Shown one piece after another: positions 47,289 through 49,852 of a stretch of 64,000 nucleotides of DNA. How positions within the stretch are numbered: position 1 is the stretch's first letter; every line of letters starts with the position of its first letter. Under the pieces are notes generated by a model. The model had not been told where the DNA came from. It worked only from the letters and a program-made list of their open reading frames with translations, and did not search any database. Origin of the DNA: an uncultured delta proteobacterium (GTDB lineage: Bacteria > Desulfobacterota > Binatia > UBA9968); the NCBI GenBank assembly GCA_963755715.1, contig CAVWLW010000013.1, positions 1 to 64,000 on the forward strand, in the 5' to 3' direction. A program made the position numbers and the translations under genes.

Positions 47289-48242
47289 ATGGCATCGATC
47301 GGATTAATTGGGCTGGGTAACGCCGGCCGCCCAATGGCTGAGCGAATTCTCGCAAAGGGACATTCCCTCACGGTGTTTGATATCGACACCGGAGCGCTTG
47401 ATCGGGTTGTCCAGCGCGGCGCACGTCCGGCGCATTCCGCGGGCGCGGCGGTCTCGGACATTACCATCACGCTGCTGCCGTCATCGGTGGAAGTGCGACA
47501 AGCCGTGTTGGGTGAAAACGGTGTGTTGAACTCACTTCGGCCGGCATCGACGGTGATCGATCTCAGCGGCACCGATCCGGATTGCGCGCGCGAGCTGGAA
47601 GAACGATTGCGGGAAACGCAGGCCACGTTCATCGGCGGGACGATTCACGCCAGCGGCGCGCCGGCCGTAGTGATTCCACAAGGCCGATTCTCGATCGTCA
47701 TCGGGGGAGAGAAAGCCAAGATCGCGGCCGCCGCGGCTTTCCTGAACGAAGTGGCGCAAACGGTTATCTGTTTGCCCGAGCCGTGGATGCCGAAGGCTTT
47801 CAAGATCGCGATCATCCTATACGCGACGGCGAATAATATCATCACCGCGGAAATTTGTTCTTGGCTCACCGCCCAAGGCGCCGACCCGAAGTTGTTTCTC
47901 AAACTGTTGCAGACTACCGGCTCCCAAGCTTCCGCGATCCGCATGGAAGAGTTCATGAAGCGCAAGAATAACCACGGCGGCGCGCTCAGCAACAGCTACA
48001 AAGATTTCCGCCAAGCTTTAAGCATCGCCGCAAAGTTGGAGATTCCGATGCCACTTGCGTCGACGGCCAATCAGATCCAAGAAATGGCGCGGGCGAGCGG
48101 CTTCGCGCGGCTCAATAGTCCGGCCGCGATGGGCGAGCTGTACGAGCTGATTACGGGCACCGATTTGAGCGGCGCAACGATGGACGCCGAAAAGAAACTT
48201 CACGAGGAATGTGAGCCGCGAGTGATCTACTTGGCTGAATAA
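47289..48242 (+). CDS. Beta-hydroxyacid dehydrogenase (3-hydroxyisobutyrate DH / tartronate semialdehyde reductase family)
   Basis: IGLIGLGNAGRPMA Rossmann motif; TVIDLSGTDP; AFKIA; YKDFRQALS. Confidence 0.85.
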   Translation: MASIGLIGLGNAGRPMAERILAKGHSLTVFDIDTGALDRVVQRGARPAHSAGAAVSDITITLLPSSVEVRQAVLGENGVLNSLRPASTVIDLSGTDPDCARELEERLRETQATFIGGTIHASGAPAVVIPQGRFSIVIGGEKAKIAAAAAFLNEVAQTVICLPEPWMPKAFKIAIILYATANNIITAEICSWLTAQGADPKLFLKLLQTTGSQASAIRMEEFMKRKNNHGGALSNSYKDFRQALSIAAKLEIPMPLASTANQIQEMARASGFARLNSPAAMGELYELITGTDLSGATMDAEKKLHEECEPRVIYLAE

Positions 48243-48351
48243 AGGCGAATCCGAAAGCACTAGATTTTTTATGGGGCTGAGCCAGGAAAACGTGAAATTG
48301 CCGGGACGCCCGCTCGGTCTCCGCGGCGCGTTTGGCGCGTAGGATGACCCT

Positions 48352-48414
48352 CAAAAAAAAATTTAAAAAACTTAAAAATCTATCTTGACAGGAACGCTAC
48401 ACGGCGTTAGGAAT
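48352..48414 (+). promoter_or_regulatory. Sigma-70-type promoter with A-tract UP element
   Basis: Phased A-tracts (48353-48378), perfect TTGACA at 48385-48390, 17-nt spacer, TAGGAA(T) at 48408-48414. Confidence 0.6.
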
Positions 48415-48419
48415 TGGGT

Positions 48420-48715
48420 TAGCCCCAGCCTCCAAAGGGGTGAGAAGAGCACGAACGAAGCGCGCACGTTTTCAGCTCTTCGAAAGTGGAGGTCGATTAT
48501 GGAAGATAGTCCGCCGGGCGAGTCAGGCCCGCAGACCGCGGGCGGCAGCAGTTCGAGCAAGCTACCAGTCAGGCATCGAGCTGTGTGAATCAAGCCCTCG
48601 ACTTCGGCGCCAGTTAAGGCGCGAACCCGGAGACGGGTCAATCAGAAGGTTGGGCTTCCTCAAAGCAGCCTCGAACTTTACTGACGAGAGAGCTGGTTTG
48701 AAGTCAAAGCTGCGT
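48420..48715 (+). ncRNA. Candidate structured non-coding or dual-function RNA (unassigned family)
   Basis: Extensive nested pairing: 48428-34/48487-93, 48444-50/48475-81, 48545-49/48709-13, 48552-58/48696-702, 48568-72/48681-85, 48576-80/48670-74, 48592-97/48652-57 and a 48625-38 GAGA hairpin. It lies between a promoter and a terminator, with no long ORF. Confidence 0.55.
48499..48588 (+). CDS. Possible 29-aa peptide MEDSPPGESGPQTAGGSSSSKLPVRHRAV
   Basis: GGAGG at 48488-48492, 6 nt before the ATG. The RBS is paired with cctcc in the 5' hairpin. Confidence 0.35.
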   Translation: MEDSPPGESGPQTAGGSSSSKLPVRHRAV

Positions 48716-48778
48716 TAATTGCGGAAAGTGGGCAGCAGTTACTAAAATTAAATAAGCATAATGGCGCGATGGCGTCGG

Positions 48779-48822
48779 CAAAACGGGCAGGTCAATAGAG
48801 ATGACTGCCCGTTTTGTTTTTG
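48779..48822 (+). terminator. Intrinsic terminator (possibly bidirectional)
   Basis: caaaacgggca-g-gtca-atagaga-tgac-tgcccgttttg followed by tttttg. Confidence 0.65.
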
Positions 48823-48878
48823 TAAACAGTGAAGCGAGCAAAGCGGCGTCGTGAGAATGCATGAGCCTCTGAGGTTGC

Positions 48879-49589
48879 TTATCCGCGCAGAAGTTTGCCG
48901 TATCCTTCAATCGACGCTTTCATGCCGAGGACCTGCATGACCCACCACAGCGCCGCCGCAGTGCTGGATACCACCGGCTTTCCCGTGTCATCTTCAAGTT
49001 CCTGGACATAGGCGACCGAGCGCCAGCGTCCCTGAATCAGCAAGCTATCGACATCAGGATGCTGGCGAAATAACTCACGCGCGACTTTATAGGACGCATA
49101 GTCCGGCAGCTTAACCTGATCCACTGGTTTAGAAACTTCCAAACCTTTGATCGCCAGAACTTCCAAGCCGCCGTCCTCGTAATATTTCTTGACGGCCTGA
49201 TTAATGCTTTCCTTGTAGGCGGTAGCAATGACCGTGCTGCGGACCTTTAAAAATTTGAGCGCTGCCACTGTTGCGCTCATCGCTGTGCTGACGGGCAAGC
49301 CGACTTGCCCCGAGAGTTTCGCCACCACTTCCTGTTCCGCCGCGTAACCGCGCTGCGTGCCCAAAGTGATACCGCCCATGAGAATCGCGTCGCACTCCTC
49401 GGCGGCGAAGATGCCCAAGCCGGCGCCGAGGGCATCGATCGCTTTGTTGAATTCGGCTTCAGTGTGAGCCTGGACGTTGAGACCCGAGGCAACGATCGTA
49501 AAGCCTTGAGGCAAGATCAAATCCCAATCCGAAGGAGTTTCGAATACCGACGGCGATAAATATCCGATCCGTGCTTTCCAACCTGACAC
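48879..49589 (-). CDS. Maleate isomerase / arylmalonate decarboxylase (Asp/Glu racemase) family protein
   Basis: WKARIGYLSPS; LPVSTAMSATVAALKFL; ATAYKESIN; ELEDDTGKPVVSSTAAALW; GYGKLL. GTG start with aggag RBS. Confidence 0.85.
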   Translation of the reverse strand: MSGWKARIGYLSPSVFETPSDWDLILPQGFTIVASGLNVQAHTEAEFNKAIDALGAGLGIFAAEECDAILMGGITLGTQRGYAAEQEVVAKLSGQVGLPVSTAMSATVAALKFLKVRSTVIATAYKESINQAVKKYYEDGGLEVLAIKGLEVSKPVDQVKLPDYASYKVARELFRQHPDVDSLLIQGRWRSVAYVQELEDDTGKPVVSSTAAALWWVMQVLGMKASIEGYGKLLRG

Positions 49590-49852
49590 GCGTTTCTCCT
49601 TGTTATCGAATTTTGAATTGGCGATAGTAACGGCGAGCCGACTGGGTCTTTCTATATCAATACACAGTCCATGAAAAGTCCTGGTGAGCGCTAGGAGGCG
49701 TCGCTGATTGTGGCTTGCCATGTAGCCTCAAACGAAACATGTCGCTTCGGCCACAGAAAATGCTATTCTGCGCGTCAAATATATAATATATATATGTTGC
49801 TCGAACGCTCAATAATTTATGATTTAATGCTTTTATTTATGTTTTATATCTT

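What the first reader, a model, noticed from the sequence alone, without database searches (positions are those of the whole stretch)
48352..48822. Orphan transcription unit: candidate undescribed ~300-400 nt structured RNA with its own promoter and terminator
Seen in sequence: a 630-bp gap between convergent genes has phased A-tracts, a perfect TTGACA, a 17-nt spacer and TAGGAAT. That architecture resembles strong stable-RNA promoters. The next ~300 nt fold almost completely. Domain 1 pairs gcctcca/tggaggt and gaagagc/gctcttc. Domain 2 pairs ccgcc/ggcgg and gggc/gccc. Domain 3 is a ~170-nt rod pairing gcagc/gctgc, ttcgagc/gtttgaa (G-U wobbles), agct/agct, gtcag/ctgac, tcgag/ctcga, gctgt/gcagc, aagccc/gggctt and cttc/gaag. 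It is capped by a two-hairpin head (gcgcc/ggcgc and acccg-GAGA-cgggt). An intrinsic terminator with a U-tail follows at 48779-48822 on the same strand. The G-U pairs, internal loops and GNRA tetraloop suggest selection on RNA structure, unlike the near-perfect DNA palindromes elsewhere in the window. I could not match it to tRNA, SRP, RNase P, tmRNA or a riboswitch, and there is no downstream gene to regulate. Inference: a trans-acting ncRNA, possibly a divergent 6S-like polymerase or protein sponge, or a new class.
Basis: partly seen in the sequence, partly recalled or inferred. Interest (0 to 1): 0.8.

Follow-up and report, generated by a model that had tools for sequence, protein, structure and literature searches.

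The report
Abundant Binatia RNA with mini-ORF
This gap between two genes makes a real, abundant RNA of about 400 bases, seen so far only in one group of uncultured soil bacteria (Binatia), which combines a tiny translated-looking reading frame with a conserved folded RNA domain of unknown job.

Summary
A promoter (TTGACA, 17 nt, TAGGAA), a folded ~400-nt + strand RNA and a terminator are all present. No Rfam family matches.

It is one copy per genome. A covariance model finds it in 45 of 123 genomes of the order, all Binatia-type MAGs, and in 0 of 150 other genomes of the phylum. Rod top, three-way junction, P2, a 3' hairpin and the terminator all covary.

Four soil or rhizosphere RNA libraries from four studies each hold one identical contig covering only 48420-48818.

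All 37 homologs keep GGAGG, a start codon, and Pro-Pro followed by Gly in 35 of 37, with synonymous Pro changes. The frame is 8-52 codons long, and in G000 and its nearer relatives its 3' half forms one strand of the rod.

So it is not a plain ncRNA and shows no 6S feature. My best reading is a translation-coupled RNA in which a ribosome pausing at Pro-Pro-Gly gates the closing helix of the RNA domain. That step is inferred. A micropeptide mRNA is the main rival.

It is a new RNA family of uncertain function.

The parts
48352..48384 (+). A/T-rich tract with A-runs upstream of the -35, resembling an UP element
   Evidence: Sequence. A/T-rich tracts sit at the same place in most homologs.
48385..48390 (+). 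-35 hexamer TTGACA
   Evidence: TTGACA in 35 of 36 homologs with upstream sequence, TTGACT in 1.
48408..48413 (+). -10-like TAGGAA, 17 nt after the -35
   Evidence: TA at this spacing in 33 of 36. It is atypical and was not called by the consensus scan.
48420..48818 (+). The transcript, about 399 nt
   Evidence: RNA-library contigs of 4 runs from 4 studies cover 48420-48783, 48429-48788, 48434-48788 and 48444-48818 with 0 differences. Adapter-like letters lie directly before 48420 and a non-templated A-run directly after 48818.
48422..48441 (+). P1 hairpin GCCCC/GGGGU. Its loop carries CCUCC (48429-48433), complementary to the SD.
   Evidence: Stem letters change on both sides across homologs, judged by eye on the alignment and not counted. 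CUCC lies in the first 34 nt in 15 of 36.
48444..48481 (+). P2: outer stem GAAGAGC/GCUCUUC and an inner hairpin whose loop holds the self-complementary GCGCGC (48460-48465)
   Evidence: 8 of 8 predicted pairs have double changes in 29 sequences on a plain MAFFT alignment. Loop letters.
48488..48492 (+). Shine-Dalgarno GGAGG, 6 nt before the ATG
   Evidence: A GGAGG or GAGG lies 4-8 nt before the start codon in 35 of 37 homologs. In one homolog (G018) the motif has moved together with an insertion.
48499..48588 (+). Small ORF: 29 codons plus TGA (MEDSPPGESGPQTAGGSSSSKLPVRHRAV). Pro-Pro-Gly codons at 48511-48519.
   Evidence: An ORF with start codon is present in 37 of 37 homologs (36 ATG, 1 GTG) and is 8-52 codons long. 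A stop within the first 18 codons occurs in 1 of 37 in this frame, against 29 and 18 of 37 in the other two frames.
48527..48543 (+). Element A GCCCGC (48527-48532), a 5-nt loop, and element B GCGGGC (48538-48543). A starts exactly 7 nt after the Gly codon.
   Evidence: A is GCCCGC in 36 of 37. A:B forms 6 of 6 pairs in 33 of 37. The spacing is fixed. There is no covariation because the letters never vary.
48544..48727 (+). Rod capped by a three-way junction.
- Lower rod: 48544-48575 with 48676-48727.
- Upper rod: 48576-48584 with 48666-48675.
- Internal loop holding the stop codon.
- Helix 48592-48597 with 48652-48657.
- Hairpin 1: 48607-48622.
- Hairpin 2: 48625-48638.
   Evidence: Helices 4-9: 20 of 24 pairs with double changes. 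Over all 38 pairs, 93% of cells are paired and 0 of 500 shuffles do as well. Lower rod: cognate duplex mean -29.1 against non-cognate -22.9 kcal/mol, and the cognate is better than the non-cognate mean in 28 of 28.
48728..48733 (+). Element B' (GUGGGC here, GCGGGC in most homologs): a second partner for A, closing the rod domain
   Evidence: It is a conserved island in a variable stretch (columns 66-72). A pairs with it in the MFE of 26 of 34 homologs. A distal partner with 6 of 6 pairs exists in 30 of 37.
48734..48762 (+). A/U-rich linker
48763..48776 (+). Small hairpin GGCGC-GAUG-GCGUC
   Evidence: 4 of 5 pairs have double changes in 30 sequences.
48780..48821 (+). Intrinsic terminator: stem AAAACGGGCAG.../...CUGCCCGUUUU followed by a U-tail. 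An A-run on its 5' side means it could also serve the convergent gene.
   Evidence: 9 of 11 pairs have double changes. An RNA contig ends at 48818. Not called by the simple scan.

Best explanation
This is an independently transcribed, abundant RNA of about 399 nt (48420-48818, + strand). It belongs to one order of Candidatus Binatia and is both translated and structured.

Layout, 5' to 3':
- A strong promoter drives the RNA.
- Its 5' third has two hairpins (P1, P2), a canonical GGAGG ribosome-binding site and a short reading frame.
- The only parts of that frame kept across the family are the start and the codons for [Ser/Thr/Asn]-Pro-Pro-Gly at codons 5-9.
- Exactly 7 nt after the Gly codon lies the invariant GCCCGC (A).
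- A can pair with an adjacent GCGGGC (B, a local hairpin). It can also pair with a second GCGGGC about 200 nt downstream (B').
- The A:B' pairing closes a rod capped by a three-way junction.
- In G000 and its nearer relatives the rest of the frame is the 5' strand of that rod, and the stop codon sits in the rod's conserved internal loop.

Proposed mechanism (inferred). The frame acts in cis, like a leader peptide, rather than through its peptide.
1. A ribosome loads and pauses at Pro-Pro-Gly, a motif that stalls ribosomes unless EF-P helps.
2. The paused ribosome then sits with its mRNA entry right at the foot of the A helix.
3. While it is paused, the RNA domain stays folded.
4. When elongation resumes, the ribosome unzips the closing helix and the rod up to the stop codon.

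Translation status (EF-P or prolyl-tRNA supply, ribosome load) would thus set how much of the RNA carries a folded three-way-junction domain. I take that domain to be the working part, binding a still unknown protein, RNA or ligand. The paused ribosome may also shield the RNA from decay.

Shown: the transcript, its ends, its conservation, the covarying structure, and conservation of the SD, start codon and Pro-Pro-Gly.
Inferred: translation itself, the pause, the gating, and the output.
For: Transcript.
- 6 RNA runs of 6 studies hold 55-61% of the sampled words of 48300-48900.
- All 4 runs that were laid each give one contig, identical to the window, inside 48420-48818.
- Adapter-like letters lie directly before 48420 and an A-run directly after 48818.

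Family.
- One copy in G000.
- Found in 18 of 31 genomes of the genus and 45 of 123 of the order.
- 37 full-length homologs were aligned.

Reading frame.
- 37 of 37 have a start codon (36 ATG, 1 GTG). A GGAGG or GAGG lies 4-8 nt before it in 35 of 37.
- The frame is open over 18 codons in 36 of 37, while the other two frames carry stops in 29 and 18 of 37.
- Indels inside the frame among genus members are multiples of 3.
- Pro codons vary only at the third position: CCA 30 and CCG 7, then CCG 31, CCT 4, CCA 2.
- There is one Ser codon switch, AGT to TCT.
- Pro-Pro sits at codon 6 or 7 in 35 of 37.

The peptide itself is poorly conserved.
- pN/pS is 0.89 in frame, against 1.27 and 1.54 out of frame.
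- Length ranges from 8 to 52 codons, and one homolog stops right after Pro-Pro-Gly.
- This pattern fits a cis-acting frame.

Switch elements.
- A is invariant in 36 of 37 at a fixed 7-nt distance from the Gly codon.
- A:B forms 6 of 6 pairs in 33 of 37, and a distal partner forms 6 of 6 in 30 of 37.
- In the MFE, A pairs distally in 26 of 34 homologs, locally in 6 and otherwise in 2. The local form costs 0-9.3 kcal/mol more.

RNA domain: covariation as.

Pro-Pro-Gly stalls ribosomes and EF-P relieves the stall (PMC5021804, passages read).
Against: - No direct evidence of translation exists: no ribosome profiling and no peptide data.
- A, B and B' never vary, so no covariation can tell A:B from A:B'. 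Both pairings are predictions from thermodynamics.
- Part of the apparent peptide conservation (Pro...Ala-Gly) is simply the letters of A and B.
- In-frame pN/pS of 0.89 is a weak coding signal.
- The output of the proposed switch is unknown.
- The terminator does not take part. Complementarity between B' and the 3' arm of the terminator is not kept in distant homologs (my reading of the alignments).
- The element is absent beside the orthologous neighbour gene in four 95-99% complete genomes of the genus, so whatever it does is dispensable there.
- EF-P dependence of Pro-Pro-Gly is known from E. coli, not from Binatia.
- Contigs cannot prove RNA ends or abundance (caveats).
Confidence: 0.4

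Rival explanations
1. It is simply the mRNA of a very highly expressed micropeptide of about 30 residues. The conserved N-terminal motif [E/D]-x-[S/T]-P-P-G-x3-P-x2-A-G is a short binding motif. The folded 3' part only stabilises the mRNA or tunes its translation.
For: - Same coding evidence as above.
- 24 of 37 frames are 31 codons long.
- Many frames end in H-R-A-V or H-R-A-A.
- Strong promoter and strong SD.
Against: - The RNA downstream of the stop codon is better conserved than the peptide and covaries heavily.
- Peptide length ranges from 8 to 52 codons, and the C-terminal halves are unrelated in distant homologs.
- pN/pS is 0.89.
- The conserved H-R-A-V end overlaps a conserved RNA helix.
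- The peptide matches nothing in Pfam or NCBIfam and gave no usable hit in the ESM Atlas.
Confidence: 0.25
2. The working part is only the structured RNA, acting as a protein- or ligand-binding domain or as a base-pairing regulator. The SD and mini-ORF with a paused ribosome serve as a 5' stabiliser that shields the RNA from 5'-end-dependent decay and explains its abundance. No gating is involved.
For: - Assembled in every laid RNA run at mean word depth 10-93, in libraries of only 16-134 million letters.
- The SD and Pro-Pro-Gly lie close to the 5' end.
- The domain covaries.
- Ribosome-dependent 5' stabilisers are known in Bacillus (recalled, not checked here).
Against: - It does not explain why the frame runs into the rod, nor why A sits at a fixed distance from Pro-Pro-Gly and has two conserved partners.
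- Whether Binatia have the relevant 5' exonuclease was not tested.
Confidence: 0.15
3. It is a pure non-coding RNA, as the first reader proposed (a 6S-like polymerase sponge or another protein sponge), and the ORF-like features are incidental.
For: - Rod-like fold with internal loops.
- No RF00013 hit anywhere in G000 or in the 31 genomes of the genus, so a 6S RNA has not been identified in this group.
- High expression.
Against: - SD, start codon and an open frame occur in 37 of 37 homologs, with third-position Pro changes.
- The RNA is 399 nt and is covered as one contig. 6S is about 185 nt.
- The apex is a three-way junction.
- It is absent from 13 of 31 genus genomes by the model. In the 4 of those that were inspected (95-99% complete), no element lies beside the orthologous neighbour gene.
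- RF00013 rings in only 5 of 14 control genomes, so its silence says little.
Confidence: 0.08
4. It is a cis regulator of the convergent Amdase-family gene, for example through regulated read-through antisense transcription or a shared bidirectional terminator.
For: - That gene lies downstream and convergent in 23 of 37 loci, while the upstream neighbours vary.
- The terminator has A-runs on one side and U-runs on the other.
Against: - The gene's orthologs exist without the element in 4 genomes.
- Distant homologs have unrelated neighbours in either direction.
- No laid RNA contig reaches beyond 48818.
- No conserved antiterminator pairing was found.
- The linkage can be plain vertical synteny.
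Confidence: 0.05

Closest known systems
Dual-function (coding plus regulatory) bacterial sRNAs such as Staphylococcus RNAIII/hld, E. coli SgrS/SgrT and Bacillus SR1/SR1P (recalled, no call)
   Same: It is a stand-alone transcript with its own promoter and terminator. It is a few hundred nucleotides long and highly structured, with a small ORF inside and C-rich, SD-complementary loops in part of the family (CUCC near the 5' end in 15 of 36).
   Different: - There is no sequence or Rfam relationship.
- No trans target is known.
- In G000 and its nearer relatives the ORF is physically part of the main helix of the RNA domain, and its only family-wide conserved codons form a ribosome pause motif.
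- In the known cases, peptide and base-pairing regions are largely separate modules.
Leader-peptide transcription attenuators (trp, his; mgtP-type proline-codon leaders), and attenuator RNAs that also act in trans such as Sinorhizobium rnTrpL (recalled; the his leader as a pause reporter was read in PMC8129111)
   Same: It has a short frame in which only the pause-inducing codons are conserved, fixed spacing between those codons and a helix element with two alternative partners, and an intrinsic terminator at the end.
   Different: - No co-directional gene follows. The downstream gene is convergent in 23 of 37 loci.
- The terminator shows no conserved alternative pairing.
- About 230 nt of covarying rod and three-way junction lie between the frame's start and the terminator. 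No attenuator has that.
6S RNA (Rfam RF00013)
   Same: It is an abundant stand-alone RNA made from a strong promoter, with an irregular rod shape.
   Different: - It is twice the size of 6S.
- It carries a ribosome-binding site and an ORF.
- Its apex is a three-way junction.
- It does not match the model.
- It is dispensable within one genus.
Orphan large structured RNAs found by comparative genomics and abundant in metatranscriptomes, such as the IMES, GOLLD, OLE, ROOL and raiA classes (recalled)
   Same: It is lineage-restricted and strongly covarying, with unknown function and high representation in environmental RNA libraries.
   Different: It matches none of these families in Rfam 15. Those classes are not described as carrying a conserved translated frame.

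Membership tests
Any Rfam 15 family | Match to a curated covariance model | tested here: not met
   0 matches at gathering score in the whole window. At E up to 10 in 48200-48900 there were only two chance hits of 17.6 and 14.6 bits against cut-offs of 70 and 65.
6S RNA | Match to RF00013 | tested here: not met
   No hit here or anywhere in G000 or in the 31 genus genomes. The model rings in only 5 of 14 control genomes, so it is insensitive.
6S RNA | RNA of about 185 nt whose ends form a closing stem around a large central bubble and a single terminal hairpin | tested here: not met
   The transcript is 399 nt in one contig. It has about 105 nt of 5' sequence, with SD and ORF start, before the first element of the rod domain, and its apex is a covarying three-way junction.
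6S RNA | Binds the sigma70 holoenzyme and templates product RNA | not testable with these tools
   Needs biochemistry.
tmRNA | tRNA-like domain plus a tag frame without SD or ATG | tested here: not met
   ARAGORN finds none in the window. A tmRNA scoring 196 bits lies elsewhere in G000. This frame has an SD and an ATG.
SRP RNA / RNase P RNA | Match to RF00169 / RF00010 | tested here: not met
   Both are found elsewhere in G000. There is no match here.
Leader-peptide attenuator | Short frame in which the conserved codons are the pause or sensor codons | tested here: met
   Pro-Pro is kept in 37 of 37 and the next codon is Gly in 35 of 37. The rest of the peptide is variable, with length 8-52 codons.
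Leader-peptide attenuator | Mutually exclusive pairings that decide whether the terminator forms | tested here: not met
   A has two conserved partners. However, neither B nor B' keeps complementarity to the terminator arms in distant homologs (my reading).
Leader-peptide attenuator | A regulated gene downstream on the same strand | tested here: not met
   23 of 37 loci have a convergent gene downstream. Only 2 share a co-directional one, and it starts more than 200 nt after the terminator.
Dual-function sRNA | Stand-alone transcript with its own promoter and terminator | tested here: met
Dual-function sRNA | The small ORF is translated | tested here: inconclusive
   Comparative evidence is strong, but no ribosome or peptide data could be obtained.
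Dual-function sRNA | Regulates other RNAs or proteins in trans | not testable with these tools
   No target search was made. Uncultured organism.
Riboswitch | Aptamer upstream of the gene it controls | tested here: not met
   No Rfam aptamer matches. The structured domain lies after the ORF start and before a terminator, with no gene behind it.
Dispersed repeat / MITE | Many copies per genome | tested here: not met
   One copy in G000 by BLAST and by the model. At most one full-length copy per genome among relatives, apart from a second, divergent copy in G012 and two weak hits in G081. Multi-hit rows for G017 are pieces at contig ends.

The most novel reading that the evidence does not exclude
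This is a new class of riboregulator whose activity is switched by its own translation. An abundant stand-alone RNA uses a Pro-Pro-Gly mini-ORF as a sensor of elongation capacity (EF-P, prolyl-tRNA, ribosome load). A ribosome parked at the foot of the closing helix, or running through it, decides whether a conserved three-way-junction domain is folded and able to bind its partner. The RNA may also pair with itself through the self-complementary P2 loop.
Probability: 0.2. Interest if true: 0.85.

Novelty: new variant of a known kind. Interest (0 to 1): 0.65.

Why it matters
Binatia are uncultured bacteria. DNA nearly identical to this locus turns up in soil and freshwater-sediment metagenomes from many studies. 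In the literature I could search, nothing is written about their regulatory RNAs.

This is a conserved, covarying RNA that is readily assembled from small soil metatranscriptomes. It has no relative in Rfam. Its architecture interleaves a ribosome-pause mini-ORF with a structured RNA domain, which no described attenuator, riboswitch or dual-function sRNA has.

If the gating idea is right, it would be a natural example of an RNA whose fold reports the state of translation. It could be tested in vitro with purified ribosomes, with and without EF-P.

Even if it proves to be only a micropeptide mRNA, it adds a new RNA family and a new small-protein family for annotating these genomes.

Tried and rejected
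- **Rfam, tRNA and tmRNA scans:** nothing.
- **6S:** no RF00013 hit in G000 or in the genus. This is uninformative because the model is insensitive.
- **MITE or repeat:** single copy.
- **Simple promoter and terminator scan of 47800-49300:** 0 sites of either kind. The signals here are atypical and rest on conservation and on the RNA ends instead.
- **Antiterminator idea (B' against the 3' arm of the terminator):** the complementarity holds in G000 and close relatives. It fails in distant homologs whose terminator stems changed while B' did not (my reading). Rejected.
- **Selenocysteine or read-through at the invariant UGA, and the 92-codon frame 48440-48718:** rejected. Homologs differ by 1- and 2-nt indels in the hairpin loops after the stop codon.
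- **Helices 1 and 2 of the model inside the ORF:** no covariation, and 10 and 14 unpaired cells in their worst pairs. Not claimed.
- **Weak model hits near the neighbour gene in G014 and G022 (8.9 and 9.9 bits):** these lie inside the HIBADH-like coding region, so they are chance hits.
- **Peptide searches:**
  - The fourth query was in the wrong frame (my slip, start 48500 instead of 48499) and is void.
  - The correct peptides gave no Pfam or NCBIfam family and no usable ESM Atlas hit.
- **RNA contigs outside 48420-48818:** none of the four laid RNA runs has a contig over 48000-48419 or 48819-49200. With contigs, this is no proof that the flanks are silent.
- **Earlier notes of this scan:** nothing on this stretch.
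- **Literature:**
  - 0 papers hold 'Binatia' with 'small RNA'.
  - 8 papers hold 'binat' with 'structured RNA', none relevant.
  - One search was badly posed and shows nothing.
- **Not run:** no scan of metagenome contigs, and no target or partner search.
Full report
**What is in the sequence.** The stretch lies in a 636-bp gap between two convergent genes. One is a 3-hydroxyisobutyrate-dehydrogenase-like gene ending at 48242. The other is an arylmalonate-decarboxylase (Amdase) family gene on the minus strand ending at 48879.
- So is a hairpin with a U-tail at 48780-48821.
- A simple consensus scan calls neither signal, so these signals rest on other evidence given below.
- The + strand folds to -160.7 kcal/mol (z -4.06, 0 of 100 shuffles as good). 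The minus strand folds to -138.4 (z -3.0). This fits G-U pairs on the + strand.

**Not a known RNA.**
- Rfam 15 gives no match at gathering score in the window. At E up to 10 it gives only two chance hits.
- ARAGORN finds no tRNA or tmRNA.
- The genome has SRP RNA (two copies), RNase P RNA and tmRNA elsewhere.
- RF00013 (6S) hits nothing in this genome or in the 31 genomes of the genus. That model rings in only 5 of 14 control genomes, so its silence means little.

**A conserved single-copy family of Binatia.**
- The stretch occurs once in its 7.4-Mb genome.
- BLAST finds 72-84% identical copies in 11 of 24 sampled genomes of the same genus.
- I built a covariance model (R1) from 11 sequences covering the SD to the upper rod. 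It finds the element as follows:

| Group searched | Genomes with the element |
|---|---|
| Genus | 18 of 31 |
| Order | 45 of 123 |
| Family f1 (excluding G000) | 42 of 89 |
| Family f2 | 2 of 5 |
| Family f3 | 0 of 28 |
| Genera of the order | 18 of 27 |
| Other genomes sampled from the phylum | 0 of 150 |

- Of the weak order-level hits I fetched and inspected those down to 28 bits, and they keep the defining features. Nine weaker or shorter ones (G078, G080, G082, G083, G091, G093, G100, G103, G115) were not inspected.
- A pattern scan of one genome per species returned 99 stretches, of which 80 were listed. The model confirms 30 of those 80.
- The confirmed ones are MAGs deposited mostly as Candidatus Binatia or 'Deltaproteobacteria', a few under other labels. 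The remainder (Streptomyces and others) are chance matches in GC-rich DNA.
- Counts and alignments A1-A3 include the unpublished genome G005. One search also counts the unpublished G082 and G093. No conclusion depends on them alone.

**It is dispensable.**
- In four genus genomes that are 95-99% complete and lack a model hit, I located the ortholog of the neighbouring Amdase-family gene (82-85% identity).
- In G014 and G022 the HIBADH-like gene and the Amdase gene meet tail to tail with only tens of bases between them.
- In G007 and G008 other genes abut the Amdase gene.
- An unfiltered model search finds nothing credible in any of the four.

**It is expressed as a discrete RNA.**
- Six metatranscriptome runs from six studies (soil and rhizosphere) hold 55-61% of the sampled words of 48300-48900, about the share the unit occupies.
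- Fourteen runs listed as DNA, guessed DNA or of unknown kind hold 94-100% of the words.
- I laid four of the RNA runs on 48000-49200. Each gives exactly one contig with no differences: 48420-48783, 48429-48788, 48434-48788 and 48444-48818, at mean word depths of 10-93.
- The contig that starts at 48420 is preceded by 21 letters that I recognise from memory as the end of an Illumina adapter.
- The nanopore oligo-dT contig ends at 48818, inside the U-tail, and runs on into five non-templated A's followed by unrelated letters.
- These ends fit a start 7 nt after the -10 and termination at the predicted terminator.
- Contigs cannot prove ends or abundance. The lack of contigs over the flanks is not evidence of silence.

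**The structure is real.**
- On the model-fitted alignment of 38 hits, 93% of cells pair and 21 of 38 pairs show changes on both sides. No shuffle out of 500 and no slid register comes close. An alignment fitted to a model leans towards that model.
- The support sits in the upper rod, the helix below the junction and both junction hairpins, where 20 of 24 pairs show double changes.
- On plain MAFFT alignments, P2 in the 5' region has double changes in 8 of 8 pairs (29 sequences).
- The small 3' hairpin plus terminator has double changes in 13 of 16 pairs (30 sequences).
- The lower rod is too variable to align, so I compared duplex energies. Each 5' strand pairs with its own 3' strand at a mean of -29.1 kcal/mol, against -22.9 with other homologs' strands. 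The cognate pair beats the non-cognate mean in 28 of 28.
It competes with the conserved P1 hairpin GCCCC/GGGGU.
- The GAGA loop is not a conserved GNRA loop.

- GGAGG (48488-48492) lies 6 nt before an ATG at 48499. The frame runs 29 codons to a TGA at 48586-48588.
- All 37 aligned homologs have a start codon (36 ATG, 1 GTG). A GGAGG or GAGG lies 4-8 nt upstream of it in 35 of 37.
- In one genome (G018) the aligned GGAGG is lost, and a new one appears in an inserted stretch at the proper distance.
- The frame is open over its first 18 codons in 36 of 37. The other two frames carry stops in 29 and 18 of 37.
- Length differences inside the frame among genus members are multiples of three.
- The two Pro codons vary only at the third position, and one Ser changes from AGT to TCT.
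- Yet the peptide is poorly conserved. Only [E/D]-x-[S/T/N]-P-P-G stands on its own. The later P...A-G is encoded by two invariant RNA elements.
- pN/pS over 14 codons is 0.89 in frame, against 1.27 and 1.54 out of frame.
- Frame length runs from 8 to 52 codons, and one homolog stops directly after Pro-Pro-Gly.
- The peptide matches no Pfam or NCBIfam family.
- This pattern is that of a leader-type frame, where the act of translation matters more than the product.

**How frame and fold are interlocked.**
- Exactly 7 nt after the Gly codon lies GCCCGC (A, 48527-48532), unchanged in 36 of 37 homologs.
- Five bases further lies GCGGGC (B). About 200 nt downstream, in an otherwise variable stretch, lies a second GCGGGC (B'; GUGGGC at 48728-48733 here).
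- A:B' would close the whole rod and junction domain.
- In minimum-energy folds of the full RNAs, A takes B' in 26 of 34 homologs, B in 6 and something else in 2. Forcing the local hairpin costs 0-9.3 kcal/mol.
- In the 28 homologs whose strands could be extracted, the second half of the frame is the 5' strand of the rod. In G000 and 26 other homologs of the 37, the stop codon lies in the conserved internal loop GUGAAUCA.
- Pro-Pro-Gly stalls ribosomes unless EF-P helps (PMC5021804, passages read).
- With the second Pro codon in the P site, the 7-nt spacer would put the A helix at the mRNA entrance of the ribosome. That geometry is my inference from general knowledge of ribosome footprints.

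**Best explanation and its limits.**
- I read the unit as a translation-coupled RNA. A paused ribosome leaves the domain closed, and an elongating one unzips it. The three-way-junction domain is the working part.
- The transcript, the family, the structure and the conservation of the translation signals are shown.
- Translation, pausing, gating and the output are inferred.
- A, B and B' never vary, so covariation cannot decide between the two pairings.
- A classical attenuator is excluded on three counts:
  - No co-directional gene follows. The Amdase-family gene is convergent downstream in 23 of 37 loci, and the neighbours are unrelated in distant homologs.
  - No contig reads through the terminator.
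  - B' does not keep complementarity to the terminator in distant homologs.
- The main rival is a micropeptide mRNA with a stabilising 3' structure.
- Lesser rivals are a ribosome-based 5' stabiliser for a structured ncRNA, a pure ncRNA such as a 6S analogue, and a regulator of the convergent gene.

**Comparison and novelty.**
- In kind, it is closest to dual-function sRNAs and to leader-peptide attenuators that have become stand-alone RNAs. These comparisons are recalled, not tested.
- It is a member of none of them. It fails the Rfam tests, and it fails the attenuator tests that concern the terminator and a downstream gene.
- Interleaving a pause-motif mini-ORF with a covarying rod and three-way junction, in an abundant orphan transcript, is to my knowledge undescribed.
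- The literature I could search holds nothing on Binatia RNAs.

Noticed in passing
window 48454-48470 (P2 apical hairpin; GCGCGC at 48460-48465): The apical loop of P2 carries a self-complementary hexamer.
- GCGCGC occurs in 25 of 37 homologs.
- Two homologs of one genus have GUGCAC, a double change that keeps self-complementarity.
- Two homologs of another genus have CCGCGCGG.
- 8 homologs have no such motif.
This is the layout of kissing-loop dimerisation sites (recalled), so the RNA may pair with itself.
   Followed up: partly
window 48429-48433 and 48658-48663: Two C/U-rich stretches are complementary to Shine-Dalgarno sequences. One is CCUCC in the P1 loop: CUCC lies in the first 34 nt in 15 of 36 homologs, and in the G000 MFE it pairs with the RNA's own SD. 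The other is CUUCCUC in the rod's internal loop, which is widely conserved. Whether they mask the RNA's own SD or target other mRNAs is open.
   Followed up: partly
window 48780-48821: The terminator stem is flanked by an A-run on its 5' side and a U-run on its 3' side. It lies 57 nt beyond the stop of the convergent Amdase-family gene, so it may terminate both transcripts.
   Followed up: no
G012:C275:31466-31657 (L058) and G012:C136 (L033): One genome holds two copies. One is typical of its genus. The other is divergent (53.7 bits) and resembles the copy of a genome from another genus (L054). That genome has 9% estimated contamination, so the second copy may come from another organism in the bin.
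   Followed up: no
L024/L032 (G024:C648) and G024:C14:79-140: In this genome the element's sequence departs from the family after the rod. Terminator-like pieces turn up 1.75 kb away at a contig end and on a second contig. This is either an insertion or an assembly break.
   Followed up: no
G000:C47:3979-4077 and G000:C12:61606-61704: There are two full SRP RNA matches (69.9 and 65.9 bits) in one genome. In both contigs, weak sub-threshold RF00023 (tmRNA model) hits lie about 100 nt and about 1.1 kb upstream. This is either a duplicated region or a second strain in the bin, which has 4.2% contamination.
   Followed up: no
window 48879-49721 (-) and relatives: The Amdase-family gene next door belongs to a very large paralog set. 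A search with it returned 11-20 matches per genome in five genomes of the genus.
   Followed up: no
window 48511-48516 and homologs: The first Pro codon is CCA in 30 of 37 homologs and the second is CCG in 31 of 37. A paper on E. coli reports a bias towards CCA in intermediate and strong pausing Pro-Pro motifs (PMC8129111, passages read).
   Followed up: no
window 48818, run X15: The oligo-dT nanopore contig continues after 48818 with five A's that are not in the genome. This is either a natural short poly(A) tail on a bacterial RNA or a tail added during library preparation.
   Followed up: no
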